DNA from: a virus
Lineage: Duplodnaviria > Heunggongvirae > Uroviricota > Caudoviricetes
Direction: 5' to 3' (one strand)
Virus record (IMG/VR): IMGVR_UViG_2547132272_000020
Span: 1-9,500 of that record
DNA: 9,500 nt
A model generated the notes under the pieces. The model was not told the origin of the DNA. It saw nothing but the letters and a program-made list of their open reading frames with translations, and ran no database searches. Below, piece after piece: positions 739 through 9,500 of this stretch. Numbering within the stretch: position 1 is the stretch's first letter; every line of letters starts with the position of its first letter. The translations under genes were made by a program, and so were the position numbers.

Positions 739-1361
739 TTTTGAATCACCGTTGTTGCATAGGAATAAATAAAAGGGAGTTTTACATATTTCTGGTCAAT
801 GGCATCTTTCAGAAAATAGCCTATACCATCGCCATACTCTGGTATCTGAATAGAAAAAACGCTGTCCGATACTGTCACACTCACATCAAAAGTGTGCTGC
901 AACGGCGGGTCTATTCCGTTTTTTCCATGAATGAACCGCGCCACACGTCGCTTTAACCAGTCAATGCAGAAATGCGAACCGTCAGCCTTATAAAAATTCC
1001 ACGTTAATATTCGTTTGAAATAATCATCAGGTACATACGATGCCTGCCCCGGAACATAATTCCGCATTGCCGCATAAGGGATTGTATTGTATTCAATGGT
1101 ATCGTATGCGCCGCGTGCAATAGCCTCCTCGGAAACCTGTAGTAAAGGCCTTTCAACGCCATAAATCCCGAGTGCAATCCAGTCCAGCAATTGCCCGGTT
1201 ATTGATTCCGATGTCCAGCATGGCAATGCCAGATTGTTGAGTGAATCGAGGTATTCCTGAGCAATTTCATTGTATGCATCAAAGAACGCAACAACATTCG
1301 GATCATCTCTGTACTGCACAAATGGATAAGCAGGGAGAATTTTCTCAGTCAGATATTGCAT
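735..1361 (-). CDS. baseplate/tail protein in the Mu gp48 (DUF2313-type) or P2 gpI position
   Basis: The track gives 735..1469, but its first 36 codons lie inside the J-like gene. The ATG at 1361-1359 (MQYLTEKILPAYPFVQYRDDPNVVAFFDAYNEIAQEY...) is preceded by CAGGT about 8 nt upstream and overlaps the J-like stop by 17 nt. Its stop overlaps the tail-fiber ATG. Function is assigned mainly by synteny between baseplate J and tail fiber. Confidence 0.55.
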   Translation of the reverse strand: MQYLTEKILPAYPFVQYRDDPNVVAFFDAYNEIAQEYLDSLNNLALPCWTSESITGQLLDWIALGIYGVERPLLQVSEEAIARGAYDTIEYNTIPYAAMRNYVPGQASYVPDDYFKRILTWNFYKADGSHFCIDWLKRRVARFIHGKNGIDPPLQHTFDVSVTVSDSVFSIQIPEYGDGIGYFLKDAIDQKYVKLPFIYSYATTVIQK

Positions 1362-2571
1362 ACTTGTTGACCTGAACCTGTGATGCCACCGTTGAAAAAT
1401 AGGAATAGGTATCGCCATAAACCAGGCTTGTGTCTTTCGCCGGAAGAACAATATGGCCGTTAATACCAATGCTCACACTGATTGTTGAGATCAACGTCGC
1501 ATCAACCAGCAACCTGACGGAACTGGTAAAAATATCCTGGATACGCAGAAGATTTATCGGGTGTCCGACTTCAATTGAATTGATGTAATCAGCAACGTTT
1601 TGCTGCACAGCCATAGCAATACCCGCCGGATCAACATAATCATCAGACACCGTGTTCCAGGTGATTAGCACCATGACGTTTTGTGATGACGGGATAACGA
1701 ACGGCACCTGATAAACGTCCGGTGAAACGGTTATTGAAACCGTGCGTTTTTCCACTGCCGCACCGGATGGATTGCTAACATCGTTGGTCAGTTTCGAAAT
1801 ATCCGGTACAGATTTGTAAATCGCATAAGCCACATCATACGGATCACCGCCACCAACAACCGCAACCCATTTCCCCAGCGACGACTGCCGGAAAGAAATC
1901 AGGTTTTCTCGCACACCGCTTACTGATTTGAGCATCGCTTTAAAGCAATCCGGTGTTCCCTGCACACCAAACATGCCGGACTCCATAACTTCGGCGCGAT
2001 ATGATGCCCATGTCTGCGCCTCCTGACCGGGCATACCTGCGGTAAGGTTCGTGCATTTTACAGGCTGGTCTTTGGGTACTGATGTAATGACCTGCGTTAC
2101 AGTCCCTTCCGGTACAGCCCATGAGCCTGACGTTGTGGCCACACAGTAGACTGGCTCAGTCTGCCCGCTTTCCGGTACCACCGTATCGCGGGAAACCGCA
2201 TACTGGTAGTTACCATCTCCAACCACAAATCCTTTAGGGATACCAAACCCCGGCAACGCCTCAAACACCACGTATACCGCCGTATTTGTACTTAATCCCT
2301 TCTGTGCTCCATAAATGTTTCCGAGTTGCATCAGTAACGGAATATTTGCGCCGTATGGGCTTACGGAGTTAATAAGGTCCACCCGCGCCTGGTCTATTAA
2401 TGCCAGCGCCCCGACTGCCGTGCTGGCAAGGTCTGTAATAAGTCCCGCAGGAAGGTTGGCTGTATATCCAGGTACTTTTTCAGCAACTCTGGTGATAAGA
2501 TTTGCGAGCAAATCATTGGGTGGCGTAGGCTGCGCACCCGCACTGGTCATAGTAATTGGTATTTCTGACAT
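1345..2571 (-). CDS. baseplate J-like protein (Mu gp47 / P2 gpJ / T4 gp6 class)
   Basis: A 408-codon ORF (MSEIPITMTSAGAQPTPPNDLLANLITRVAEKVPGYTANLPAGLITDLASTAVGALALIDQARVDL...). Size and position (before the gp48-like and tail fiber genes) match the baseplate J family, and the N-terminal region resembles J-family proteins from memory. No recognisable Shine-Dalgarno precedes the ATG at 2571; the upstream sequence is AT-rich and is the antisense of the RBS of the divergent 158-aa gene. Confidence 0.7.
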   Translation of the reverse strand: MSEIPITMTSAGAQPTPPNDLLANLITRVAEKVPGYTANLPAGLITDLASTAVGALALIDQARVDLINSVSPYGANIPLLMQLGNIYGAQKGLSTNTAVYVVFEALPGFGIPKGFVVGDGNYQYAVSRDTVVPESGQTEPVYCVATTSGSWAVPEGTVTQVITSVPKDQPVKCTNLTAGMPGQEAQTWASYRAEVMESGMFGVQGTPDCFKAMLKSVSGVRENLISFRQSSLGKWVAVVGGGDPYDVAYAIYKSVPDISKLTNDVSNPSGAAVEKRTVSITVSPDVYQVPFVIPSSQNVMVLITWNTVSDDYVDPAGIAMAVQQNVADYINSIEVGHPINLLRIQDIFTSSVRLLVDATLISTISVSIGINGHIVLPAKDTSLVYGDTYSYFSTVASQVQVNKYAISD

Positions 2572-2608
2572 ATTTATTTATCACTTGAATACATTATAAG
2601 GAGATATA

Positions 2609-3085
2609 ATGCGGTTCTATTTCAACAAAAAAGGTCTTTCTGGTATTTCTGTATCAAGCGGAAGGAGTAGTGGTGGCTGTGGAACATTAATTGGAGTTGT
2701 CTTTATACTTTATTTAATTGGCCATTTTTCATCACCTTCCGATGAAGATATTAAAAATGAATCATCATCTTATAAGACAGCAGTCGTTAAAAGCGACAAA
2801 ATAATTTCCGAAATCTGCGATCAGTTTAGCACTGATGATTCCGCAAAAATATTTTTTAATTCAAATCTAAACAAACATTGGTATAAAACAAAAGTTAAAG
2901 TAAATTCACTATCAGATCAAAGATTATCTGCGATTGATTTCAAAAATCCAGAATTAAAGTATGAAATAAGAATGTCTGATTCAAGACCATTAAGAGTAGG
3001 GGATATTATTTCCGTTGAATTTGTACCTACTGAATTCAGTAAGTATTCATGCGAAATCAGTGGCACAATAGGTAAGTACAAGTAA
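2609..3085 (+). CDS. hypothetical membrane-anchored protein (AT-rich cargo gene); predicted basic N-terminus, one TM helix, ~115-aa C-terminal domain
   Basis: Strong RBS: AAGGAG ends about 7 nt before ATG 2609 (ttataaggagatataATG). The N-terminus MRFYFNKKGLSGISVSSGRSSGG is basic, followed by the hydrophobic stretch CGTLIGVVFILYLIGHF and then an acidic stretch SSPSDEDIKNESS. Stop TAA at 3083-3085 is followed immediately by a perfect hairpin terminator. Composition is markedly more A+T-rich than the tail genes. No family recognised. Confidence 0.65.
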   Translation: MRFYFNKKGLSGISVSSGRSSGGCGTLIGVVFILYLIGHFSSPSDEDIKNESSSYKTAVVKSDKIISEICDQFSTDDSAKIFFNSNLNKHWYKTKVKVNSLSDQRLSAIDFKNPELKYEIRMSDSRPLRVGDIISVEFVPTEFSKYSCEISGTIGKYK

Positions 3086-3090
3086 CCTCA

Positions 3091-3123
3091 AAAAAAACAG
3101 CCCGCTGAACGCGGGCTGTTTTT
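3091..3123. terminator. bidirectional intrinsic terminator between convergent cargo genes
   Basis: aaaaaaACAGCCCGCtgaacGCGGGCTGTttttt: a perfect 9-bp GC-rich stem (3097-3105 / 3111-3119) with a 5-nt loop, flanked by an A-run on one side and a T-run on the other, so each strand gets hairpin plus U-tract. It sits between the stop of the 158-aa gene (3085) and the stop of the minus-strand gene (3122-3124). Confidence 0.8.
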
Positions 3124-3511
3124 AATATACGCCACGAATAAGATCTTGGGTAAAAACATCACATCCTTCGCTACCTAATTGCAGTCTTTTCTTAAAGTAC
3201 TCAATAATACCGTCATTATGAACGCCATTTTTGGAAATTTTTAACCACGTATTGCTCCATTCTATACTTTGGAGTTTTGTTAAAGCCGCTTTTTCATTTC
3301 CTTCACTAACCAAGCGACACGATTCTGATAGTTGATCAGTTACAATCATTTCATTTCTCATATGCTGAAGCAATTGTCGCTGTTCTTCGCTTAAAGTAAC
3401 ATCTTGATTAGTAATGAGTCTTTCTGATTTTTCAATTGGCGTACCAATCGCACACCAAGAGACGAATAAAATTGTAAATAAAGGGAGTGTAATTTTTATA
3501 CTGACCGACAT
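3122..3511 (-). CDS. hypothetical secreted/periplasmic protein with N-terminal signal peptide (AT-rich cargo gene)
   Basis: The track gives 3122..3517 starting at a GTG. The ATG two codons downstream (3511-3509) is preceded by GAGGTG and gives MSVSIKITLPLFTILFVSWCAIG|TPIEKSERL...: short polar n-region with Lys, hydrophobic core, small residues before a likely signal peptidase I site. It is not a lipobox (no [GAS]-C). The mature part has two Cys. Composition is AT-rich. No family recognised. Confidence 0.6.
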   Translation of the reverse strand: MSVSIKITLPLFTILFVSWCAIGTPIEKSERLITNQDVTLSEEQRQLLQHMRNEMIVTDQLSESCRLVSEGNEKAALTKLQSIEWSNTWLKISKNGVHNDGIIEYFKKRLQLGSEGCDVFTQDLIRGVY

Positions 3512-3517
3512 AATCAC

Positions 3518-3830
3518 CTCATTATCAAATGTTCATGCGGATTTTATCAACGGTTTCCCTCTATTCAAATCAGACTTTACATCCATGAGCTATTGAGTAT
3601 GATTATGCGCATGAGGCGTCGAAACCTCTTTCACGCGGCCTAGACCAACCCCGTCAGTGTTGGATTTTTTATGCCTACAATTCAGTGATGGCACAATGTG
3701 CGGTCACATCCCCGATCAATGTCGGGAGGGCGACGAATACAACACCCGAAAGGGAAATAAGTCCGCGGTTTCGTGAAGCCGTTTCGAACCTCCTGGCACC
3801 ACAATTTCGAAAAAATTTCACGAGGTTTCT
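3518..3830. promoter_or_regulatory. divergent control region and long leader upstream of the antirepressor gene, with repeated motif and a hairpin plus T6
   Basis: Three copies of a motif TCGAAA(C)-N3-4-TTCACG: 3618-3635 (direct), 3772-3789 (inverted) and 3805-3822 (direct, abutting the GAGG Shine-Dalgarno of the antirepressor gene). Hairpin CCAAC-N8-GTTGG followed by ATTTTTT at 3646-3670. Candidate plus-strand sigma70 promoter TTTACA (3576-3581), 16-bp spacer, TATGAT (3598-3603). Direct repeats TTATCAA / TTATCAA / TATTCAAAT at 3522-3571. All sites are read by eye. Confidence 0.35.
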
Positions 3831-4388
3831 ATGACCAGCCAATTAATTCCCGTATTCAACGGCATTGTTTCAAACGAAACTACCCTTCTCTGCAACGCTC
3901 GCGATCTGCACACCTTTCTCGAAGTAGGTAAACGCTTTGCTACTTGGATCACCGAGCGAATCGGCGAGTATGAATTCATAGAAAATCAGGACTACATAGC
4001 TATTTCCCAAAAACGGGAAATAGGTCACGGACGAGGGAAAAAGGACTACCACCTCACCCTGGACACCGCCAAAGAACTGGCAATGGTCGAGCGCAACGAA
4101 AAAGGCCGCCAGATCCGCCGATACTTCATCGAGTGCGAGAAGAAGCTGCGCGAGGATACCACCAGCACACAATCCCCTCTGAATGTTGACATCATCATGC
4201 GCGTCAGAAACGGCTCGGTTACCCACATTGAGCACCACAAATCAGGCTCAGTTATAACCACAGAATGGGCAATTCACTTACTACGCAAAAGTGGATGGAT
4301 TGTCATGCCACGCGATGAACTTCTTAACACGCCACTGGCCCAACTGATGCCCGAAAATTTGACTCAAACCGGAACCTGCGTCCGGTAA
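3831..4388 (+). CDS. AntA/AntB-family phage antirepressor-like protein (185 aa)
   Basis: GAGG lies 5 nt before ATG 3831. The translation MTSQLIPVFNGIVSNETTLLCNARDLHTFLEVGKRFATWITERIGEYEFIENQDYIAISQ...KDYHLTLDTAKELAMVERNEKGRQIRRYFIECEKKLRE matches my recollection of the AntA N-terminal domain signature (LH.FLEVG..F..WI..RI..Y.F.E..D... YHLTLD.AKELAMVERNEKG...R.YFIECE) found in enterobacterial prophage antirepressors. Orientation is opposite to the tail genes. The 3' end overlaps the 3' end of the convergent gp25-like gene by 25 nt (4364-4388). Confidence 0.8.
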   Translation: MTSQLIPVFNGIVSNETTLLCNARDLHTFLEVGKRFATWITERIGEYEFIENQDYIAISQKREIGHGRGKKDYHLTLDTAKELAMVERNEKGRQIRRYFIECEKKLREDTTSTQSPLNVDIIMRVRNGSVTHIEHHKSGSVITTEWAIHLLRKSGWIVMPRDELLNTPLAQLMPENLTQTGTCVR

Positions 4389-4711
4389 CTGGTCCCATTA
4401 AAAAACACAACATCGATGTTATAGGTGGGGTTCTCTGCCCCATCTACCTTTGAAATTGCCAGCGATGCAAAATACCCGGCAAACTGTTGCTGAACCATGT
4501 TCACATAGTAGTCCGGGTAAATTTGCTGCACGATGCACTGCTGCGCTGGAATGCCGTAATTCGCGTAAAACGGCGACTCCCCCAACCCCAGCTTTAACGT
4601 CTGAATGAGCGTCGTCAGCCAGCCGTAGGAGAAATCACCGCTGGCGTCAGATTCTACAGCAACCCATTTTTTGTTGCCGTTCGCGTCGGTGACGCGGCCC
4701 CATGTTCTCAT
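4364..4711 (-). CDS. putative baseplate wedge protein, gp25 / P2 gpW / Mu gp46 class (115 aa)
   Basis: AAGG lies about 7 nt before ATG 4711. Size (115 aa) and position between the spike and baseplate J genes fit gp25-like proteins. The segment GLGESPFYANYGIP has the same G-E-(6 residues)-Y-G-x-P spacing as the signature I recall from gpW/TssE-type proteins (for example ...GSRVMRRDYGS... in P2 gpW). This is recollection and needs a profile search. Confidence 0.5.
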   Translation of the reverse strand: MRTWGRVTDANGNKKWVAVESDASGDFSYGWLTTLIQTLKLGLGESPFYANYGIPAQQCIVQQIYPDYYVNMVQQQFAGYFASLAISKVDGAENPTYNIDVVFFNGTSYRTQVPV

Positions 4712-4714
4712 GCG

Positions 4715-4879
4715 TCAACCTTTCAAGTAAATTAGGGTACCGGTAGCCAGAGCGGTACAAATGATCCACGCTACTGGAGTCAGAATATGCCGAATACCCT
4801 GACATACTGCGATTATTCTCGCAGCCTTATCAGCTCCTTGTGGGGTTGTCTCAGCCTTAAGAATCAGTTCGCTATCCAT
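4715..4879 (-). CDS. small hypothetical membrane peptide B (54 aa), translationally coupled to the downstream gp25-like gene
   Basis: Not in the track (below size cutoff). ATG 4879-4877 is preceded by AAAGG 6 nt upstream. Translation MDSELILKAETTPQGADKAARIIAVCQGIRHILTPVAWIICTALATGTLIYLKG: polar N-half and a ~21-residue hydrophobic C-terminal segment. Its TGA stop (4717-4715) lies 3 nt before the ATG of the 115-aa gene. Its start overlaps the stop of ORF A by 8 nt. Confidence 0.4.
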   Translation of the reverse strand: MDSELILKAETTPQGADKAARIIAVCQGIRHILTPVAWIICTALATGTLIYLKG

Positions 4880-5039
4880 TTAGAACCTTTATGATCTCTG
4901 CGATTCCCGGAAGCGATTTAGCAACTGCAAACCCTCCGATAACTATAAGAACTGCATAAAACATTCTTCTCAGAACCGGACTTCTTTCGAGCAATTTTAG
5001 AGCTTCCACAATCCAGTCTCCTCCGCTAAAATTAATCAC
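4872..5039 (-). CDS. small hypothetical membrane peptide A (55 aa from GTG; 30 aa if started at the internal ATG 4964)
   Basis: Not in the track. GTG 5039-5037 is preceded by GGAGG with a 6-nt spacer (TTGGAGGTCTTCCGTG). Translation (M)INFSGGDWIVEALKLLERSPVLRRMFYAVLIVIGGFAVAKSLPGIAEIIKVLNG, with a hydrophobic C-terminal segment. Stop TAG is at 4874-4872. Start codon choice is uncertain. Confidence 0.35.
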   Translation of the reverse strand: MINFSGGDWIVEALKLLERSPVLRRMFYAVLIVIGGFAVAKSLPGIAEIIKVLNG

Positions 5040-5084
5040 GGAAGACCTCCAAACATACGTAATTATCCCTTGCCTTATTCAAGG

Positions 5085-5126
5085 TCAGAAACAGAAAGCC
5101 CCGACTGTTTGCCCAGTCGGGGCTTT
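5085..5126 (-). terminator. intrinsic terminator downstream of the spike gene (hairpin is symmetric enough to act on both strands)
   Basis: AAAGCCCCGACTG tttgcc CAGTCGGGGCTTT: perfect 13-bp stem (5095-5107 / 5114-5126) with a 6-nt loop. On the minus strand it is followed by UUUCUGUUUCUG (5094-5085). It lies 39 nt after the spike stop (5165). Confidence 0.7.
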
Positions 5127-5164
5127 CGCTTTATGGATAGAATTTAAAGTGAAATGAACCGGTA

Positions 5165-5878
5165 TTAACCCGGATTTGGTTTCTTTGACGTGATCGTGCT
5201 GTTGCCGCTTTGAACCCCAGTCACATCGTGGCTGTGACCGCTGGCGCTGACACCTTTTATCATCGCGTCGTTTTGCACAGTAAGCGGGCCAATCAGCGAA
5301 GCGGTTGTATCCTTCATCTGGGCTTTGTCCTGGACGATCGGTCCGTTGAGGTGAATTTTCCCGTTCAGGAAAATATCTTCGGCCTCGAGGTAAACAGCTT
5401 TCGACTTTTGCCTGATTTCTTCCGGTGCCACCGTTACCGAGCTACTGCCGTCCTCTGTTTTGAGGATCGCGCCATCCGGACCGTACAAAACGATCTTTTG
5501 CGGATCTTCGTCGGACCAGTCCTTGTTTGCCAGTGGCACGAAAAACAGTGGAGTGAGCGACATCGAGTAAGAGAGCGTCGCCATACCGGTTCCCAATCCG
5601 GACACACCGCGCAGGGATACATCAGCGGCAATTGTTACTCCTCGATCGCCCGGCTGTATCGGGTAACGAATATACGGGAATGTGGCGACAGGGATTGTTA
5701 TCTGCGGAAAGTTGATCCCCTCCGGCAGCATATCAAACTGAACTGTCACTATCTGCCCGCTGACACCGACAACATGGCAGGGCAATTCACGACCTTTAAG
5801 CTCGGCTTGCTGGTTACCAGAACTGGTCATCATCTCCGACAGCGTTCGGAGAAACGGTAATTTTTGAGCGTTTGACAT
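5165..5878 (-). CDS. baseplate spike protein (P2 gpV / Mu gp45 class), 237 aa
   Basis: ATG 5878-5876 overlaps the TAA of the upstream gene (TAATG). Position follows the hub-like gene. The C-terminal region ...MIKGVSASGHSHDVTGVQSGNSTITSKKPNPG carries an H-x-H motif (5228-5236) near the end, as expected for metal-binding apexes of gp5/gpV/gp45-type spikes. Family is assigned by order, size and this motif. Confidence 0.65.
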   Translation of the reverse strand: MSNAQKLPFLRTLSEMMTSSGNQQAELKGRELPCHVVGVSGQIVTVQFDMLPEGINFPQITIPVATFPYIRYPIQPGDRGVTIAADVSLRGVSGLGTGMATLSYSMSLTPLFFVPLANKDWSDEDPQKIVLYGPDGAILKTEDGSSSVTVAPEEIRQKSKAVYLEAEDIFLNGKIHLNGPIVQDKAQMKDTTASLIGPLTVQNDAMIKGVSASGHSHDVTGVQSGNSTITSKKPNPG

Positions 5879-6885
5879 TACACCCTCGCCCAGTTCTCAG
5901 CATATGCCTCAAATACCGTCACCCAGGCATCGCCATCGGCTGTCAGATACGAACCAATGTGTCTGACCGATTTCACAAGAAATTTCCCGGTGAACGTGGT
6001 CGAATTTTTTGCGATAACGCTGGGTGCCGTTGTATTAGCCATCACAATCGACGCAGCACCTGAATATAGCCCCTCCGGCAGTTTAACCACATCACCACAT
6101 CTGATATCGCCCCTCATAGGGCATTTGAAGCTGACGGTAAACGGCGCTATCCATGTCGGCTGCCCGACCAGTTCATGGGCATGAATTGTTTTTGGCTCAC
6201 CCCACTTTGCCGATGCGTTATCGTAGATTCGTATTCTGTCGGAAAGAATACTGATGGCGATTCCGCTGTATTTCTCATCGCGCATCATTGCAATTGAAGC
6301 ACTACGGAGGACCATAGCCAGCGAACCAATATCTTCGTAGGTTCCATTCCACGGTTCCGGCAAAACGAGGCTGTCGCTGACAGTACAATCGATCAACTTA
6401 TTCGGAAATGCCTTTTGCAACGCACGGGAGATTACATCACCAACCTTTTCCCCTTTAAGCCCCTCCCCCTCGATAGAGAACGGTTTACCATCATCTGTTT
6501 TGCGTACGGTTGGATTTATTACCAGGTTTAAGGTCTGGTTCGTGCCGATCCAGTTGGCATAGGCCAGATAAATTTCGCCATAAATAACCTCACCCTGTTG
6601 CTGTGGATTTGCCAAAGGCAATCCCTCAACAAAGCCCGCTTTCATACGGACCAGACACCCCTGCAAACTCACGCTTTGCTTCAGCATGTCGATAGGCAAA
6701 CCGTATATTGTGAGCATCGTTCCTGAATTCACTACATCAAGACCCGCTACCTCCACATCAAATTCAACATGTAGCCCACACCCGGGGGTTTTACTGGTAT
6801 CAAAAGGCCCGATAGGTTTACCGTTGCAATCCACTGGCGGCTTGCCTGTTTTAGGATTGATGATTTCCAGTCGGTAATAGCGCAT
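5878..6885 (-). CDS. putative baseplate hub protein (Mu gp44 / P2 gpD position), 335 aa
   Basis: The ATG at 6885-6883 overlaps the upstream TAA (TAATG), and its own TAA overlaps the spike ATG. Assignment is by synteny (immediately upstream of the spike gene) and size; I recognise no motif with confidence. Confidence 0.5.
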   Translation of the reverse strand: MRYYRLEIINPKTGKPPVDCNGKPIGPFDTSKTPGCGLHVEFDVEVAGLDVVNSGTMLTIYGLPIDMLKQSVSLQGCLVRMKAGFVEGLPLANPQQQGEVIYGEIYLAYANWIGTNQTLNLVINPTVRKTDDGKPFSIEGEGLKGEKVGDVISRALQKAFPNKLIDCTVSDSLVLPEPWNGTYEDIGSLAMVLRSASIAMMRDEKYSGIAISILSDRIRIYDNASAKWGEPKTIHAHELVGQPTWIAPFTVSFKCPMRGDIRCGDVVKLPEGLYSGAASIVMANTTAPSVIAKNSTTFTGKFLVKSVRHIGSYLTADGDAWVTVFEAYAENWARV

Positions 6886-7151
6886 TACGAAACCTCAAAC
6901 TGATTAGAACTTTCACGAAAAACGAGTTTCCCCGGCGAGCAAGGCAGCGCCAGATTGATGTCGTAATTGTCAGGTGACGCGATCAACGGTGTGTACACAA
7001 TCACGTCGCCAGAACTGTCTTTCAGTTCCAGATAGTAACGATTTGCATACAGATTAAACGGAACGCGGGCGAATGTTTCATATTTTCCGATTCTGGCCGT
7101 GAACTGAAACGGACCTCGCCCGTCCGGTTTGAAAGGAATTAACGTTGTCAT
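6885..7151 (-). CDS. small tail-module protein of unknown function (88 aa)
   Basis: ATG 7151-7149 overlaps the TGA of the upstream gene (ATGA). The stop overlaps the start of the hub-like gene. Compact coupling within the structural operon supports a real gene; function unassigned. Confidence 0.45.
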   Translation of the reverse strand: MTTLIPFKPDGRGPFQFTARIGKYETFARVPFNLYANRYYLELKDSSGDVIVYTPLIASPDNYDINLALPCSPGKLVFRESSNQFEVS

Positions 7152-7816
7152 AAGCCAATACCAAACTCCTGCACGACCTGGTTCTTAATACCTGACCACG
7201 ATAGCGGACCGTCTGACGGCATCCCTTTATCAAATTTATCCAGAACGCTCGCCAGCGTCTTTACTGTTTGTTCGACAGATGACAATGGTTGCTCAAATTC
7301 AATCTGCCAGGTGTGCTGCACTTGCTTGTTCTGCTCAGAGAAACCGGATGTATCGATAAACGACCGCATCAGGCAACGCGTATAGATAAACGACGGAGTC
7401 AGAACGGTGTAACAACCGCCATACTGGTTATGCATATCAAGCGCCATTTTCAGCGCCGTGAACGTCATTCCCTTCGTGGTGTAGCCACCGTCCTCCGTTG
7501 ATGCCGGACGGATCATCTGCATGACTACCCGGTTAGGCTTCCTGACGGTCGCATTCGCTGCCGTTACCTGGTTATAGAAATTCAGGTTGCAGATATCCTG
7601 CTGGACCAGCGTTGTCCCGGCCATTGGCGTGAATGCCGCCATCGAGCGTGTACGAATCTCTCCATGCAGCAGACCGTTCGCGATGCTTAGTCCTTCGGTC
7701 AGAACAGCAATCGGCATCACCCCGCCAGGAATTTTCGACGCTATGCCATCAACTAAAAGAATGGGCGAAACTTCAAACGCCAGTTTGAAAGCTTGTCCAA
7801 AGTAATTAAGTGACAT
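7148..7816 (-). CDS. tail-module protein following the tape measure (Mu gp43/N position), 222 aa
   Basis: ATG 7816-7814 lies 3 nt after the tape-measure TAA, with a G-rich stretch (GGGG) upstream. Part of a chain of four translationally coupled genes. Function is by position only. Confidence 0.5.
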   Translation of the reverse strand: MSLNYFGQAFKLAFEVSPILLVDGIASKIPGGVMPIAVLTEGLSIANGLLHGEIRTRSMAAFTPMAGTTLVQQDICNLNFYNQVTAANATVRKPNRVVMQMIRPASTEDGGYTTKGMTFTALKMALDMHNQYGGCYTVLTPSFIYTRCLMRSFIDTSGFSEQNKQVQHTWQIEFEQPLSSVEQTVKTLASVLDKFDKGMPSDGPLSWSGIKNQVVQEFGIGL

Positions 7817-7819
7817 CTT

Positions 7820-9500
7820 TTACCCCGGTATTTGTTGCGTTCCGGCGAGTTGTGCCAGTATGTCGGAACCCGGCGATTGTCGCACCTGAAGCTCAATTAT
7901 TGCGCGGGCATTTTTGCCAGCACCCTGAAGATTATCTCTGGCATTTCTTAGCTGATTCATAATACCAGGGTGTTGATCCAGGGCTCCCTGAATCTGAGGC
8001 AATAATTTAATTAAATATTTTACAGTCTCCATTCTCAAACTTAGATTTCCATCTCTATCAATACGACCTCCGTTATATGCCGTAAGCATTTTTGCCACAT
8101 CGCCTTTATAACGCCGATTCAGATCATTTAAAAAGCGGCCAGCCGCAAGAGTGGATTTATTTGGGTCATAAACATCATCACCCACCAGACCATACTGTTT
8201 TGCGGTGCTATCCCAGAATTGCCACAACCCCTTAGCGAATCTACCTTTTTCATCAGGAGTTCCTCTTGCCAGAGGATTCCACGAAGATTCAACTTCTGCG
8301 ATAGCTGACATCATATTTTTAGGAAGTCGATAAGTATTATTGGCTTGCTCTACAAAGTTCTGAATATTTCTCTTTAAATCATTAGGCATACGGTAATTTT
8401 TATATACATCATCCTGTTTATAAAACTCACCCGTATACTGATTTGTCATCGGGTTTGCTCCCGGCAACGCACCACCGAGATATTTATTTCCAAATGCCGC
8501 AAGAACTGGATCTGCCTGTTCAGCACCAACTCCGGTTCCGGGGAGATATTTATCTTCCCCACCGATCCATTTGATAGCTGACCATATTGCTTTTGCAATC
8601 CGGCTCACCGCCAGAGAAAAATCGTCAAGATCATTTTTAAATTGTTCGCTATTCAGCCACTTACCAAGTTTCTCCAGCCCTTCGCCAGCCTCAGCGAGAA
8701 TTTTCTGAAAATTTCCACCATTCAGAAAACCTTCAATATTGGATGTCAGCCCATCAGATGCACCTGTGATTAGTGGGTTATATCTGGCGAGAGCTGCATA
8801 CCAGGAATTTGATATTCTGTTTCCATTTACCATCAGGTTACTCACCGTATCCTGATAACCTGACTGCATAGCTGGCGTGAGGTAAGCACCGAGCAACCTA
8901 GTATTTGATGCAAATTTCTCGTTCAGTTGGGGGATCTTGTCCAGATTCGCTTCCACCTGGTTAGTTGTCGCGACATCAACAAATCCAAGCCCTTGTCCGT
9001 TGAGAATCCCCTGAGTAAGTCCTGAACCTTTATATTGCTTAACGAGAGATGCAAGCGCGCTCATAAGTTTGGGCAGATTCTTTGCTGCACCATCTCGAGG
9101 ATCAATTCCAAGACTGACCAGACCAGCATAGTTTGGATCATTTGGATTTTTCTGTGCGTTCGCCAGATGCTGAACCAGTTCTTCTGTGCCAGAAAAATAT
9201 GGCGAATAGGTGGCACGTGCGGCCTGCATCTGTGCGGTTTCCATACCCAGCCCCTGAGCCACGCTGTATTGCGCTGCAACCTTGCTCGCCATATATCCGT
9301 ACCCGAAAGCACCGACCGAACCAAGCGCCGCAATTTTGCTCCCCCAGGATACAGTCGTTTTAAACAGCGTTTTCAGTCGTGAATTGGTCGTTTTAAGCGT
9401 TGAATTGATCTGCTTGTAAGTTTTCAGCGTCCCCTGAGCGTTTTTACCCAGACTACTGAGATACTTATCAAATGAACCGCCCCGGGTTTCCTGGAGAGTG
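7820..9500 (-). CDS. tail tape measure protein, C-terminal part with lytic-transglycosylase (SLT)-like domain (partial; continues past window end)
   Basis: The track starts at ATG 9292, but the same frame is open upstream through 9499 (69 further codons, no stop: ...GKNAQGTLKTYKQINSTLKTTNSRLKTLFKTT...), so the gene is truncated by the window. Residues ~320-420 of the track ORF (about 8033-8335) contain ...MMSAIAEVESSWNPLARGTPDEKGRFAKGLWQF..., matching the family-1 lytic transglycosylase active-site signature (catalytic Glu in E-S, codon 8290-8288). The position before the baseplate genes and the low-complexity Ala/Gln/Gly-rich flanks fit a tape measure. Confidence 0.8.
   Translation of the reverse strand, partial: TLQETRGGSFDKYLSSLGKNAQGTLKTYKQINSTLKTTNSRLKTLFKTTVSWGSKIAALGSVGAFGYGYMASKVAAQYSVAQGLGMETAQMQAARATYSPYFSGTEELVQHLANAQKNPNDPNYAGLVSLGIDPRDGAAKNLPKLMSALASLVKQYKGSGLTQGILNGQGLGFVDVATTNQVEANLDKIPQLNEKFASNTRLLGAYLTPAMQSGYQDTVSNLMVNGNRISNSWYAALARYNPLITGASDGLTSNIEGFLNGGNFQKILAEAGEGLEKLGKWLNSEQFKNDLDDFSLAVSRIAKAIWSAIKWIGGEDKYLPGTGVGAEQADPVLAAFGNKYLGGALPGANPMTNQYTGEFYKQDDVYKNYRMPNDLKRNIQNFVEQANNTYRLPKNMMSAIAEVESSWNPLARGTPDEKGRFAKGLWQFWDSTAKQYGLVGDDVYDPNKSTLAAGRFLNDLNRRYKGDVAKMLTAYNGGRIDRDGNLSLRMETVKYLIKLLPQIQGALDQHPGIMNQLRNARDNLQGAGKNARAIIELQVRQSPGSDILAQLAGTQQIPG

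What the first reader, a model, noticed from the sequence alone, without database searches (positions are those of the whole stretch)
2572..5164. Two strong intrinsic terminators and opposite-strand genes interrupt the late tail operon between spike and baseplate J
Seen in sequence: from the tape measure to the spike gene the genes are coupled by ATGA/TAATG overlaps. A 13-bp-stem terminator then follows (5095-5126). Between the gp25-like gene and baseplate J, a minus-strand transcript would cross the antirepressor gene antisense and meet a perfect bidirectional terminator (3091-3123). Established knowledge: baseplate J, gp48/gpI and tail fiber are needed in stoichiometric amounts with the upstream baseplate proteins and are normally co-transcribed. 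Inference: either the downstream genes are served by an internal late promoter or antitermination, or the element is a defective prophage or a domesticated tail cluster whose expression has been rewired.
Basis: partly seen in the sequence, partly recalled or inferred. Interest (0 to 1): 0.45.

Follow-up and report, generated by a model that had tools for sequence, protein, structure and literature searches.

The report
Accessory-gene islands inside a prophage tail operon
The two terminators and opposite-strand genes are real, but they are ordinary add-on ("moron") cassettes, one carrying an antirepressor gene, slotted into the tail-gene operon of a lambda-like E. coli prophage whose late transcription is probably made terminator-proof by a Q antiterminator.

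Summary
A 14-bp hairpin terminator follows the spike gene (5094-5127, minus strand). A 13-bp bidirectional terminator (3093-3123) lies between two convergent low-GC genes.

Ninety-six related loci, from prophages, viral contigs and isolated phages, give the explanation. In distant relatives and in isolated myoviruses the genes hub, spike, 115-aa protein, J and I abut or overlap. In the Escherichia/Yersinia lineage both junctions of the 115-aa gene are insertion hot spots with swappable cargo. Cargo includes Ant, Rha, KilA-N, an HSDR_N endonuclease, a YafO toxin, LprI and many secreted orphans.

About half of the distinct inserts carry a terminator on the tail strand. In some it ends only about 12 nt before the J start codon, which leaves no room for a promoter, so read-through is required. 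Close relatives are complete Rac-type lambdoid prophages with a Q-like antiterminator and a single late-gene orientation. This matches the known "ant moron" pattern of P22-like phages. The defective or domesticated reading is not supported.

One side result is more interesting. The Rfam element sRNA-Xcc1 (3721-3805) sits just upstream of ant. Its second hairpin loop is complementary to the ant Shine-Dalgarno region, and loop and target co-vary across 62 instances. That suggests a P1 c4-like translational brake.

The parts
5165..5878 (-). Spike / gpV-position baseplate gene (237 aa), the last gene of the tightly coupled upstream block
   Evidence: ORF. TAATG overlap with the hub gene. Sub-threshold match to TIGR01644 phage_P2_V. 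Annotated bppV or 'phage baseplate protein' in relatives.
5094..5127 (-). Terminator 1: a 14-bp G+C-rich hairpin followed by a U-rich tail (to about 5083). It marks the left edge of variable region 'gap1'. On the + strand it is followed by the weaker tail GCUUUAU and may also stop ant-direction transcripts.
   Evidence: Present in all 32 distinct gap1 versions from the Escherichia/Yersinia clade. Stem 96.9% paired, with 13 cells changed on both sides, and 0 of 500 shuffles reach the covariation score.
4872..5039 (-). Small accessory ORF (55 aa, one predicted membrane helix). GTG start behind a GGAGG Shine-Dalgarno.
   Evidence: Family found in 27 loci, always in gap1 on the tail strand. Absent from relatives without gap1.
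4715..4879 (-). Small accessory ORF (54 aa, C-terminal hydrophobic segment). It overlaps the previous ORF by 8 nt and ends 3 nt before the next gene.
4364..4711 (-). 115-aa conserved baseplate-module gene in the gpW/gp25 position. It is stranded between the two insertion hot spots.
3831..4388 (+). Antirepressor gene ant (AntA/AntB family). It is convergent with the 115-aa gene and overlaps its 3' end by 25 nt.
   Evidence: PF08346 at 1.8e-27. phrog_14211 and phrog_377. Present in 36 related loci in the same place and orientation.
3721..3805 (+). Structured leader RNA of ant (Rfam RF02221, 'sRNA-Xcc1'). The loop of hairpin 2 (3769-3777, UUUCGUGAA) is complementary to 3817-3825 (UUCACGAGG), which includes the ant Shine-Dalgarno GAGG.
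   Evidence: 69.7 bits against a gathering score of 53. Found upstream of ant or KilA-N genes in relatives. Loop and Shine-Dalgarno region co-vary across 62 instances.
3576..3603 (+). Candidate sigma-70 promoter for the leader-ant transcript (TTTACA, 16 nt, TATGAT)
   Evidence: 10 of 12 positions match. Consensus match only.
3541..3568 (-). Candidate sigma-70 promoter for the 131-aa gene (TTGAAT, 16 nt, TAAAAT with an extended TG). A second candidate lies at 3521-3550.
   Evidence: Consensus match only.
3122..3517 (-). Low-GC accessory gene (129-131 aa, N-terminal signal-peptide-like segment). Orphan family.
   Evidence: GC 0.33-0.37. Only 9 protein clusters, from E. coli and Salmonella, with no domains. 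No hits in Pfam, PHROGs, PADLOC, NCBIfam or phage records.
3093..3123 (.). Terminator 2: a bidirectional hairpin shared by the two convergent low-GC genes. It also lies across the path of the late minus-strand transcript toward J.
   Evidence: The same hairpin is present in every locus that carries this cargo (L004, L059, window).
2609..3085 (+). Low-GC accessory gene (158 aa, N-terminal membrane anchor). Orphan family. Strong AAGGAG Shine-Dalgarno.
   Evidence: GC 0.31. Only 3 protein clusters. No family or phage-record hits.
1345..2571 (-). Baseplate J gene, the first essential gene downstream of the second insertion hot spot
   Evidence: PF04865 and phrog_6.

Best explanation
The region 2572-5164 holds two accessory-gene (moron) insertion hot spots. 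They flank the 115-aa baseplate gene in the late operon of a Rac-type lambdoid prophage with a contractile tail.

The ancestral layout is a tightly coupled run: hub, spike, 115-aa gene, J, I. In the Escherichia/Yersinia lineage, cargo was inserted in two places.
- Between spike and the 115-aa gene: terminator 1 plus one or two small membrane ORFs.
- Between the 115-aa gene and J: an antirepressor cassette with its own structured leader, plus a swappable slot. In this window the slot holds two convergent low-GC orphan genes that share a bidirectional terminator.

Inferred role in the lysogen: the cassettes are transcribed from their own promoters, and the terminators stop these transcripts from running into, or antisense across, the silent tail genes.

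Inferred role after induction: RNA polymerase modified by the phage's Q-like antiterminator reads through both terminators. It runs antisense across ant and the 158-aa gene, so the 115-aa gene, J, I and the fibre genes are still made from the single late transcript.

Shown here: the anatomy, the presence/absence polymorphism, conservation of terminator 1, lack of promoter space in relatives, and Q in close relatives. Inferred: the read-through itself and prophage expression of the cargo.
For: 1. Both hairpins are strong and non-random.

2. Gap table for 96 loci.
- Spike to the 115-aa gene is -97 to +17 nt in every relative whose 115-aa protein is 84% identical or less, apart from the outliers L016 (1031 nt) and L018 (63 nt). 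It is 242-1528 nt in the Escherichia/Yersinia clade.
- The 115-aa gene to J is 48-61 nt in 11 loci and 298-3135 nt, at low GC, in most others.
- The isolated myoviruses Yersinia vB_YenM_21.09 and Klebsiella Chronis have 4-nt gene overlaps at the spike/110-aa and 110-aa/J junctions.

3. Cargo is diverse and swappable: Ant, HSDR_N endonuclease, LprI, Rha+ORF11CD3, YafO toxin, ProQ/FinO, KilA-N, IS630, and many proteins with signal peptides.

4. The cargo in this window has 31-37% GC against 47-54% in the flanks.

5. Terminator 1 is kept in all 32 distinct versions from the Escherichia/Yersinia clade, with compensatory changes.

6. Of 67 distinct inserts before J, 33 have a terminator on the tail strand. 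In L046 and L090 it ends about 12 nt before the J ATG, with the Shine-Dalgarno directly after the T run. Read-through is therefore obligatory in the family.

7. ETEC1716 (same cargo, 95-97% identical) and Rac-SA53 are full lambdoid prophages. They have a Q-like antiterminator (phrog_753, E 4.5e-79 and 7.8e-69), a sheath gene, and all late genes on one strand.

8. Literature. Lambdoid late operons are switched on by Q antitermination, and P22-like phages carry a variable 'ant moron' inside the late operon (PMC2629481). Intra-operon terminators occur in the single-promoter late operon of phage L (PMC8022706).
Against: - The window does not include Q, a qut site or the late promoter, so antitermination is inferred from relatives.
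- No transcript data are available.
- Terminator 1 sits at the upstream end of its cargo relative to late transcription, not at the downstream end as in a textbook moron. Its job in the lysogen is therefore unclear; it may stop plus-strand ant transcripts, but its plus-strand U tract is weak.
- No sigma-70-like promoter was found for the 158-aa gene.
- None of the interrupted relatives is documented in the searchable literature as forming infective virions.
Confidence: 0.72

Rival explanations
1. The terminators are tuned attenuators. Even with antitermination, they let only a fraction of late transcripts through. This sets lower levels of the 115-aa protein, J, I and fibres relative to tube, sheath, hub and spike. 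The effect would resemble that proposed for the P22 ant moron on tailspike levels.
For: Terminator 1 is conserved with compensatory changes in every member of the clade, which suggests selection on the hairpin itself. [quoted passage not shown] PMC8022706 lists partial termination as a possible role of intra-operon terminators.
Against: Relatives that make the same baseplate have no terminator or gap at either junction, so the stoichiometry does not need one. Terminators before J come and go with the cargo.
Confidence: 0.15
2. The tail cluster is split into separate late operons. Activator-dependent promoters restart transcription downstream of each terminator, as in P2-like phages.
For: In this window 520 nt separate terminator 2 from J. 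An unrecognised promoter type could hide there. The scan covers only sigma-70 consensus sites.
Against: Only 54 nt separate terminator 1 from the next start codon, and they hold a Shine-Dalgarno sequence. In relatives the terminator ends about 12 nt before the J ATG. No promoter-like site lies on the minus strand upstream of J or of the 115-aa gene. Relatives have a lambdoid Q gene rather than an Ogr-type activator.
Confidence: 0.07
3. The element is a decaying prophage or a domesticated tail cluster (tailocin-like) whose expression has been rewired.
For: Only 9.5 kb is visible. ETEC1716 has a frameshifted xis and one internal-stop gene. Rac-SA53 carries an IS1 and a fused terS.
Against: All tail ORFs in the window are intact and full length. 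The same interrupted layout occurs in more than 60 loci. Those examined in full (Rac-SA53, ETEC1716) also carry head, terminase, lysis, Q, replication and integrase genes. An antirepressor with a conserved regulatory leader makes sense only for a phage with a repressor switch.
Confidence: 0.05

Closest known systems
The 'ant moron' / immI region of P22-like phages (Villafane et al. 2008, PMC2629481)
   Same: A variable block sits inside the Q-dependent late operon, between tail genes. It often carries an antirepressor with its own regulation plus unrelated prophage-expressed genes. Its content differs among phages that share syntenic virion genes.
   Different: Here the host phage has a contractile tail with a P2-like baseplate order. 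ant points against late transcription, whereas P22 ant is co-directional. No Arc or Mnt repressor ORFs were found and there is no sar RNA (24 bits against a gathering score of 43). ant is preceded instead by an RF02221 leader. There are two hot spots rather than one.
Classic lambdoid morons (lambda, HK97, HK022; Juhala/Hendrix definition, from my own knowledge and as quoted in PMC2629481)
   Same: An extra gene lies between two adjacent late genes. It has atypical base composition and its own terminator (and usually promoter), and is absent from close relatives. Late transcription passes through by Q antitermination.
   Different: Terminator 1 lies upstream of its cargo relative to late transcription. 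Part of the cargo (the small membrane ORFs) is packed into the late operon without a detectable promoter of its own.
Intra-operon terminators of the phage L late operon (Zaworski et al. 2020, PMC8022706)
   Same: Predicted intrinsic terminators lie inside a late operon that has a single antiterminated promoter. Their role is unknown: either partial termination or a block to spurious transcripts.
   Different: Here the terminators are tied to insertion hot spots, and one is shown to be conserved with covariation.
P1/P7 immI: c4 antisense RNA, icd, ant (PMC8201110 for the outline; mechanistic details from my own knowledge)
   Same: A small structured RNA is encoded just upstream of the antirepressor gene, in the same direction. 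Its loop sequence is complementary to the ribosome-binding region of the downstream gene.
   Different: The window gives no match to the C4 family RF01695 at E up to 1. There is a single complementary loop rather than two sites. There is no icd-like ORF between the RNA and ant. Processing and action in trans are untested.
P2 baseplate genes V-W-J-I (from my own knowledge)
   Same: The gene order is the same: spike, about 115 aa, J, I.
   Different: No sequence-level match of the 115-aa protein to GPW_gp25. P2 uses several activator-dependent late promoters, not Q.

Membership tests
Moron (accessory insertion in a phage late operon) | Present in some and absent from other phages that otherwise share the same adjacent genes | tested here: met
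   Gap table for 96 loci. The isolated phages vB_YenM_21.09 and Chronis have 4-nt overlaps at both junctions.
Moron (accessory insertion in a phage late operon) | Base composition unlike the flanking genes | tested here: met
   GC 0.31-0.37 over 2600-3600 against 0.47-0.54 in the tail genes.
Moron (accessory insertion in a phage late operon) | Own terminator and own promoter | tested here: inconclusive
   The terminator is met. Sigma-70-like sites were found for ant and the 131-aa gene, but none for the 158-aa gene or the small ORFs. These are consensus matches only.
Moron (accessory insertion in a phage late operon) | Expressed from the repressed prophage | not testable with these tools
   Needs RNA-seq of a lysogen.
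Intrinsic (factor-independent) terminator | G+C-rich hairpin followed directly by a U tract | tested here: met
   Terminator 1: 14 bp then UGUUUCUG. Terminator 2: 13 bp then U8 on the minus strand or U5 on the plus strand.
Intrinsic (factor-independent) terminator | Stem maintained in evolution | tested here: met
   Terminator 1: 96.9% of cells paired, 3 pairs with changes on both sides, covariation score 0.167 against 0.102 for shuffles (0 of 500 reach it), and at most 0.062 for slid controls.
Intrinsic (factor-independent) terminator | Stops RNA polymerase in vivo or in vitro | not testable with these tools
   Needs Term-seq or a reporter assay.
Q-antiterminated lambdoid late operon | Q-type antiterminator gene upstream of lysis and virion genes, all in one orientation | tested here: inconclusive
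   Met in the close relatives ETEC1716 and Rac-SA53. The window itself does not reach that part of the element.
Q-antiterminated lambdoid late operon | Late promoter with a Q-binding/qut site and a tR'-type terminator | not tested
   Not examined.
P22 immI region | Arc and Mnt repressors and sar antisense RNA controlling ant | tested here: not met
   No Pfam match for any small ORF around ant. The sar match scores 24 bits against a gathering score of 43 and lies on the terminator 1 hairpin, not at ant.
GPW/gp25 sheath-initiator family (for the 115-aa gene) | Sequence match to PF04965 or to solved gp25-like proteins | tested here: not met
   No Pfam, NCBIfam or PDB profile hit.
GPW/gp25 sheath-initiator family (for the 115-aa gene) | gp25-like fold | tested here: inconclusive
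GPW/gp25 sheath-initiator family (for the 115-aa gene) | Position between spike (V) and J in the baseplate module | tested here: met
Rfam RF02221 (sRNA-Xcc1) | Covariance-model score above the gathering threshold, full length | tested here: met
   69.7 bits against 53, model positions 1-87.
c4-type antisense RNA (P1/P7) | Match to RF01695 | tested here: not met
   No C4 match at E up to 1 in the window.
c4-type antisense RNA (P1/P7) | Loop complementary to the ribosome-binding region of the gene downstream in the same transcript | tested here: met
   Window loop 3769-3777 against 3817-3825. Across 62 instances the longest Watson-Crick run averages 6.92 for matched pairs and 4.85 for mismatched pairs, and 0 of 2000 permutations reach the observed mean.
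c4-type antisense RNA (P1/P7) | Processed to a small RNA (RNase P) that represses antirepressor synthesis | not testable with these tools
   Needs Northern blots, RNase P assays and translational fusions.
Tailocin / domesticated tail cluster | Tail genes without head, packaging, replication and integration genes | tested here: not met
   Close relatives carry all of these. Not testable for the window's own flanks.

The most novel reading that the evidence does not exclude
The block between the two terminators may be an immunity-I-like module of a type not yet described. Its core would be the RF02221 RNA, catalogued only as the Xanthomonas 'trans-acting virulence sRNA' sRNA-Xcc1.

On this reading RF02221 is a widespread leader encoded just upstream of its target. 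It works like P1 c4: the loop of its second hairpin masks the Shine-Dalgarno of the gene that follows. In phages those genes are antirepressors of at least five N-terminal domain types (AntA, Bro-N, P22_AR_N, ORF6N, KilA-N). In Xanthomonas integrons the following gene is the SymE toxin gene.

Placing ant head-on to the late operon would add a second layer of control. Late Q-modified transcription would run antisense across ant and its leader once lysis is under way.
Probability: 0.55. Interest if true: 0.5.

Novelty: new member of a known kind. Interest (0 to 1): 0.3.

Why it matters
For the finding as written, the value is mainly corrective. Strong terminators and opposite-strand genes inside a lambdoid tail operon are not a sign of a broken or rewired prophage. 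They are the expected footprint of accessory cassettes in an antiterminated operon.

The survey also defines two precise cargo hot spots, on either side of the 115-aa baseplate gene, in a prophage family found in 320 of 5426 complete E. coli genomes. These are convenient places to look for superinfection-exclusion, toxin or defence genes. Many cargo proteins are uncharacterised secreted or membrane proteins.

The side result may matter more. If RF02221 is a translational brake on antirepressor genes, an RNA now annotated in many genomes as a virulence sRNA would be reassigned to control of prophage induction. It would also offer a simple, testable rule: loop 2 pairs with the ribosome-binding site that follows.

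Tried and rejected
1. Identity of the two low-GC genes. There were no hits in Pfam, PHROGs, NCBIfam, PADLOC or 50,697 phage records. Searches of the 5.8-billion-protein set found only near-identical orphans from E. coli and Salmonella. Their function is unresolved. I considered a known defence system and rejected it for lack of any PADLOC hit.

2. Showing the 115-aa protein is gp25-like. The PDB profile search found nothing. The single-sequence AlphaFold model was unusable, with pLDDT 44. The alignment-based model (pLDDT 76) gave only weak gp25 and sheath-initiator matches.

3. The weak Rfam 'sar' hit on terminator 1. It is below threshold and only reflects a generic hairpin, so I rejected it.

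4. Leader-type Rfam hits (Thr, Trp, rimP) on the terminators. I rejected them for the same reason.

5. Papers on Rac-SA53 and vB_Apl-pPE4, to learn whether particles are made. Nothing usable is in the held library, and the 2011 sRNA-Xcc1 paper is not held.

6. An internal promoter after each terminator. I rejected this on spacing and the absence of consensus sites.

7. tRNA genes in the window. None were found.

Full report
**What is in the window**

The minus strand carries a contractile-tail baseplate module:
- the C-terminal part of a tape-measure protein with a lytic transglycosylase domain (7820-9292);
- genes of 222 aa and 88 aa;
- a hub gene (5878-6885, phrog_196);
- a 237-aa gene in the spike position (5165-5878);
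- a 115-aa gene (4364-4711, phrog_7986);
- baseplate J (1345-2571, PF04865);
- a gene in the gpI position (735-1361).

**The two terminators are real**

The hairpin after the spike gene spans 5094-5127 on the minus strand. It has 14 bp, 9 of them G-C, and a 6-nt loop, followed by UGUUUCUG. Folding gives -31.1 kcal/mol with z = -6.45.

The second hairpin spans 3093-3123. It has 13 bp and a 5-nt loop, with a run of A on one side and a run of T on the other. It therefore reads as a terminator on both strands, with z = -5.4 and -6.1. The consensus scan missed it only because the A/T runs were absorbed into the stem.

Between the terminators lie these features:
- two small ORFs on the tail strand (4872-5039 and 4715-4879);
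- the 115-aa gene;
- a plus-strand AntA-family antirepressor gene (3831-4388, PF08346 at 1.8e-27) whose 3' end overlaps the 115-aa gene by 25 nt;
- a minus-strand 131-aa ORF (3122-3517).

Beyond terminator 2 lies a plus-strand 158-aa ORF (2609-3085). The stretch 2600-3600 has 31-37% GC, against 47-54% in the tail genes.

**Where it comes from**

The window is 95.6% identical over 85% of its length to Escherichia phage Rac-SA53. It is 94.5% identical over 67% of its length to a record named Actinobacillus phage vB_Apl-pPE4. The region matches 320 of 5426 complete E. coli genomes. Several E. coli chromosomes are collinear with the whole window at about 96.5% identity.

In Rac-SA53, pPE4 and other E. 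coli prophages the tail genes are the same, but the genes between the 115-aa gene and J differ:
- two plus-strand genes of 182 and 154 aa;
- or one gene of 179 aa;
- or an LprI-family gene;
- or the same 158/131-aa pair, as in ETEC1716.

**Comparative survey**

I fetched 91 loci encoding relatives of the 115-aa protein and measured two gaps in each.

Gap 1 runs from the spike stop to the start of the 115-aa gene. It is -97 to +17 nt in every relative whose 115-aa protein is 84% identical or less, apart from the outliers L016 and L018. These relatives include Pantoea, Erwinia, Serratia, Pseudescherichia and Caballeronia. It is 242-1528 nt in the Escherichia/Yersinia clade.

Gap 2 runs from the 115-aa stop to the J start. 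It is 48-61 nt in 11 loci. Most other loci have 298-3135 nt, at low GC.

In the isolated phages Yersinia vB_YenM_21.09 and Klebsiella vB_Kpn_Chronis, neighbouring genes from the 238-aa gene through the spike and 110-aa genes to J overlap by 1-4 nt.

The uninterrupted run is therefore the ancestral state and a working one. The two junctions of the 115-aa gene are insertion hot spots.

Cargo found there includes the following:
- Ant, in 36 loci;
- an HSDR_N-type endonuclease, in 20 loci;
- LprI;
- Rha+ORF11CD3;
- a YafO toxin;
- a ProQ/FinO protein;
- a KilA-N protein;
- an IS630 transposase;
- many proteins with signal peptides or lipoprotein-like N-termini and no known family.

None of the 10 cargo proteins tested matches a PADLOC defence model.

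The two low-GC genes of this window are orphans. One family has nine protein clusters and the other three, all from E. coli and Salmonella, and neither has a known domain.

**The terminators in that light**

Terminator 1 is present directly after the spike stop in all 32 distinct gap-1 versions from the Escherichia/Yersinia clade.

On an alignment of 21 variants, the stem is 96.9% paired. Three pairs change on both sides (G-C, A-U and C-G at one position). No shuffle out of 500 reaches the observed covariation score, and the slid controls collapse. The hairpin itself is therefore under selection.

Sequence similarity among variants breaks immediately after its T tract. The hairpin thus marks the conserved edge of the variable region.

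Before J, 33 of 67 distinct inserts carry a strong hairpin with a T run on the tail strand. In L046 and L090 the T run is followed at once by GGAG and, about 12 nt later, by the J start codon. No promoter can fit there, so in this phage family J and the downstream genes must be read from transcripts that pass a terminator.

In the window, only 54 nt separate terminator 1 from the next start codon, and they contain its Shine-Dalgarno sequence. No sigma-70-like site lies on the minus strand upstream of J or of the 115-aa gene.

**How read-through is probably achieved**

Rac-SA53 and the ETEC1716 prophage are Rac-type lambdoid elements. ETEC1716 carries the same cargo as the window and is 95-97% identical to it.

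Both encode integrase, RecET, KilR, repressor, replication genes and a Q-like antiterminator (phrog_753, E 4.5e-79 and 7.8e-69). These are followed by holins, endolysin, terminase, portal, head, sheath (phrog_205), tube, tape measure, baseplate and fibres, all in one orientation.

Lambdoid late operons are switched on by Q antitermination (PMC2629481). Predicted terminators inside such single-promoter operons are known (PMC8022706).

The same literature describes the 'ant moron' of P22-like phages. This is a fast-changing block inside the late operon, next to the tailspike gene, that often carries an antirepressor and superinfection-exclusion genes. The present region is the counterpart of that block in a contractile-tailed lambdoid phage.

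I therefore read the terminators as insulation for cassettes expressed from the prophage, overridden by Q-modified polymerase during lytic growth. This step is inferred, not shown. The window lacks Q, and there are no transcript data.

**Rival readings**

A tuning (attenuator) role is compatible with the data and would explain why terminator 1 is conserved. Relatives without any terminator make the same baseplate, however.

Internal late promoters are unlikely on spacing.

A defective or domesticated element is not supported. All tail ORFs are intact, the layout recurs in more than 60 loci, and full phage gene sets are present in close relatives. ETEC1716 does have a frameshifted xis, and Rac-SA53 carries an IS1.

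**The 'gp25-like' label**

The 115-aa protein has 3699 homologues, none with a Pfam family. It has no PDB sequence match.

Together with its fixed place between spike and J, the label is plausible but not proven.

**A side result inside the finding's coordinates**

Rfam family RF02221 ('sRNA-Xcc1') matches 3721-3805 on the plus strand at 69.7 bits, against a gathering score of 53. The match ends 25 nt before the ant start codon. The element has this distribution:
- It precedes ant in every ant-bearing relative checked, and precedes a KilA-N gene in L074.
- An exact-motif scan of viral contigs found at least 119 more copies.
- Of those copies, 103 have an ORF starting 20-260 nt downstream, and 78 of these fall in two antirepressor clusters.
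- Sampled members of those clusters carry Bro-N, P22_AR_N, P22_AR_C, ORF6N or AntA domains.
- Nine of the loci were rechecked, and all are full-length RF02221 hits.

In sequence after sequence, the loop of the element's second hairpin is the reverse complement of the stretch overlapping the Shine-Dalgarno of the next gene. The two change together:
- CCTCACTGA with TCAGTGAGG;
- CTCCTGTGG with CCACAGGAG;
- CTCCATGGG with CCCATGGAG;
- CTCCTTCG with CGAAGGAG.

Over 62 distinct instances, the longest Watson-Crick run averages 6.92 for true element/target pairs and 4.85 for mismatched pairs. None of 2000 permutations reaches the observed mean.

In the window, 3769-3777 (UUUCGUGAA) can pair with 3817-3825 (UUCACGAGG), which covers the GAGG Shine-Dalgarno.

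This is the logic of the P1/P7 c4 antisense RNA that controls Ant (PMC8201110; mechanistic details from my own knowledge). The window gives no match to the C4 family itself.

Published work treats sRNA-Xcc1 as a trans-acting virulence sRNA (PMC2996969; PMC12189769). Other papers note in passing that it lies upstream of an ORF6N gene in APSE phages (PMC7313666) and upstream of symE in Xanthomonas integrons (bioRxiv 10.1101/2025.06.18.660453).

I found no paper in the held library that links it to antirepressor control. The library is incomplete, so this may already be known to specialists.

**Verdict**

The anomaly it suggests is not one. This is a new instance of a known kind: morons, including an ant cassette, in an antiterminated lambdoid late operon. 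The family-wide hot spots are now mapped.

The most promising lead is the RF02221 leader of ant.

Noticed in passing
window 3721-3825 (+); also L001, L005, L008, L021, L026, L057, L070, L074 and L109-L227: Rfam RF02221 ('sRNA-Xcc1') lies directly upstream of antirepressor-type genes (AntA, Bro-N, P22_AR_N, ORF6N, KilA-N). Its second hairpin loop is complementary to the Shine-Dalgarno region of the following gene and co-varies with it. This suggests a c4-like translational brake rather than a free-standing trans sRNA.
   Followed up: yes
L070 3942-4698 (-): A ProQ/FinO-domain ORF (4330-4698) is followed by two tandem RF02221 copies (4155-4240 and 3942-4027) and then ant. An RNA chaperone gene next to the leader hints at a protein partner for this RNA. 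L164 has two copies of the element and L157 has three.
   Followed up: no
window 4715-5039 (-); gap 1 of related loci: Gap 1 holds alternative small ORFs of 45-68 aa, each with a hydrophobic segment. Three families occur in 14-31 loci. They are packed on the tail strand just before the 115-aa gene and are absent from relatives without the gap. Their function is unknown. In L021, L101 and L103 the same gap holds a Rha+ORF11CD3 regulator instead.
   Followed up: partly
window 4364-4388: ant and the 115-aa gene converge and overlap by 25 nt. The same overlap is kept in nearly all ant-bearing loci of this family (ant ends at 6327 and the 115-aa gene at 6348 in locus coordinates). The insertion junction therefore lies inside the end of an essential gene.
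   Followed up: partly
L080 6477-6746; L090 7192-7512: Distant relatives of the 131-aa orphan (40% and 29% identity) occupy the same hot spot before J in much more divergent phages (115-aa protein 77-84% identical). This suggests the family has a function tied to this phage type.
   Followed up: no
L036 6484-7656 (+) and 19 other loci: The most common alternative cargo before J is a 391-aa protein with an HSDR_N restriction-endonuclease-like domain (phrog_4225 'endonuclease'). It lies on the tail strand and is followed by a bidirectional terminator that ends about 12 nt before J. It gives no PADLOC hit.
   Followed up: partly
L002 (PP818812.1, 'Actinobacillus phage vB_Apl-pPE4'): This record, attributed to Actinobacillus pleuropneumoniae, is 94.5% identical at the DNA level to the window over 67% of its length. 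Its J protein is 99.5% identical to that of these E. coli Rac-type prophages. The host attribution looks doubtful.
   Followed up: no
L100 25045-26481 (ETEC1716 prophage): The 478-aa gene next to the large terminase, in the usual portal position, is annotated 'anti-CBASS protein Acb1 family protein' in RefSeq. This could be a misannotation or a fused function. I did not check.
   Followed up: no
L105, L107, L108 about 6626-8801: In three otherwise collinear E. coli chromosomes no genes were called where the hub and spike genes should be. This may reflect frameshifts or assembly errors. I did not inspect them.
   Followed up: no
window 3640-3675 (+): A short hairpin (CCAAC...GTTGG) followed by ATTTTTTAT lies between the candidate ant promoter (3576-3603) and the RF02221 element. 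A stronger version (CCAACACCC...GTGTTGGTTTTTTTA) was picked up as a terminator on the ant strand in L008, L024, L032, L057, L068 and L069. It may be an attenuator in the ant leader.
   Followed up: no
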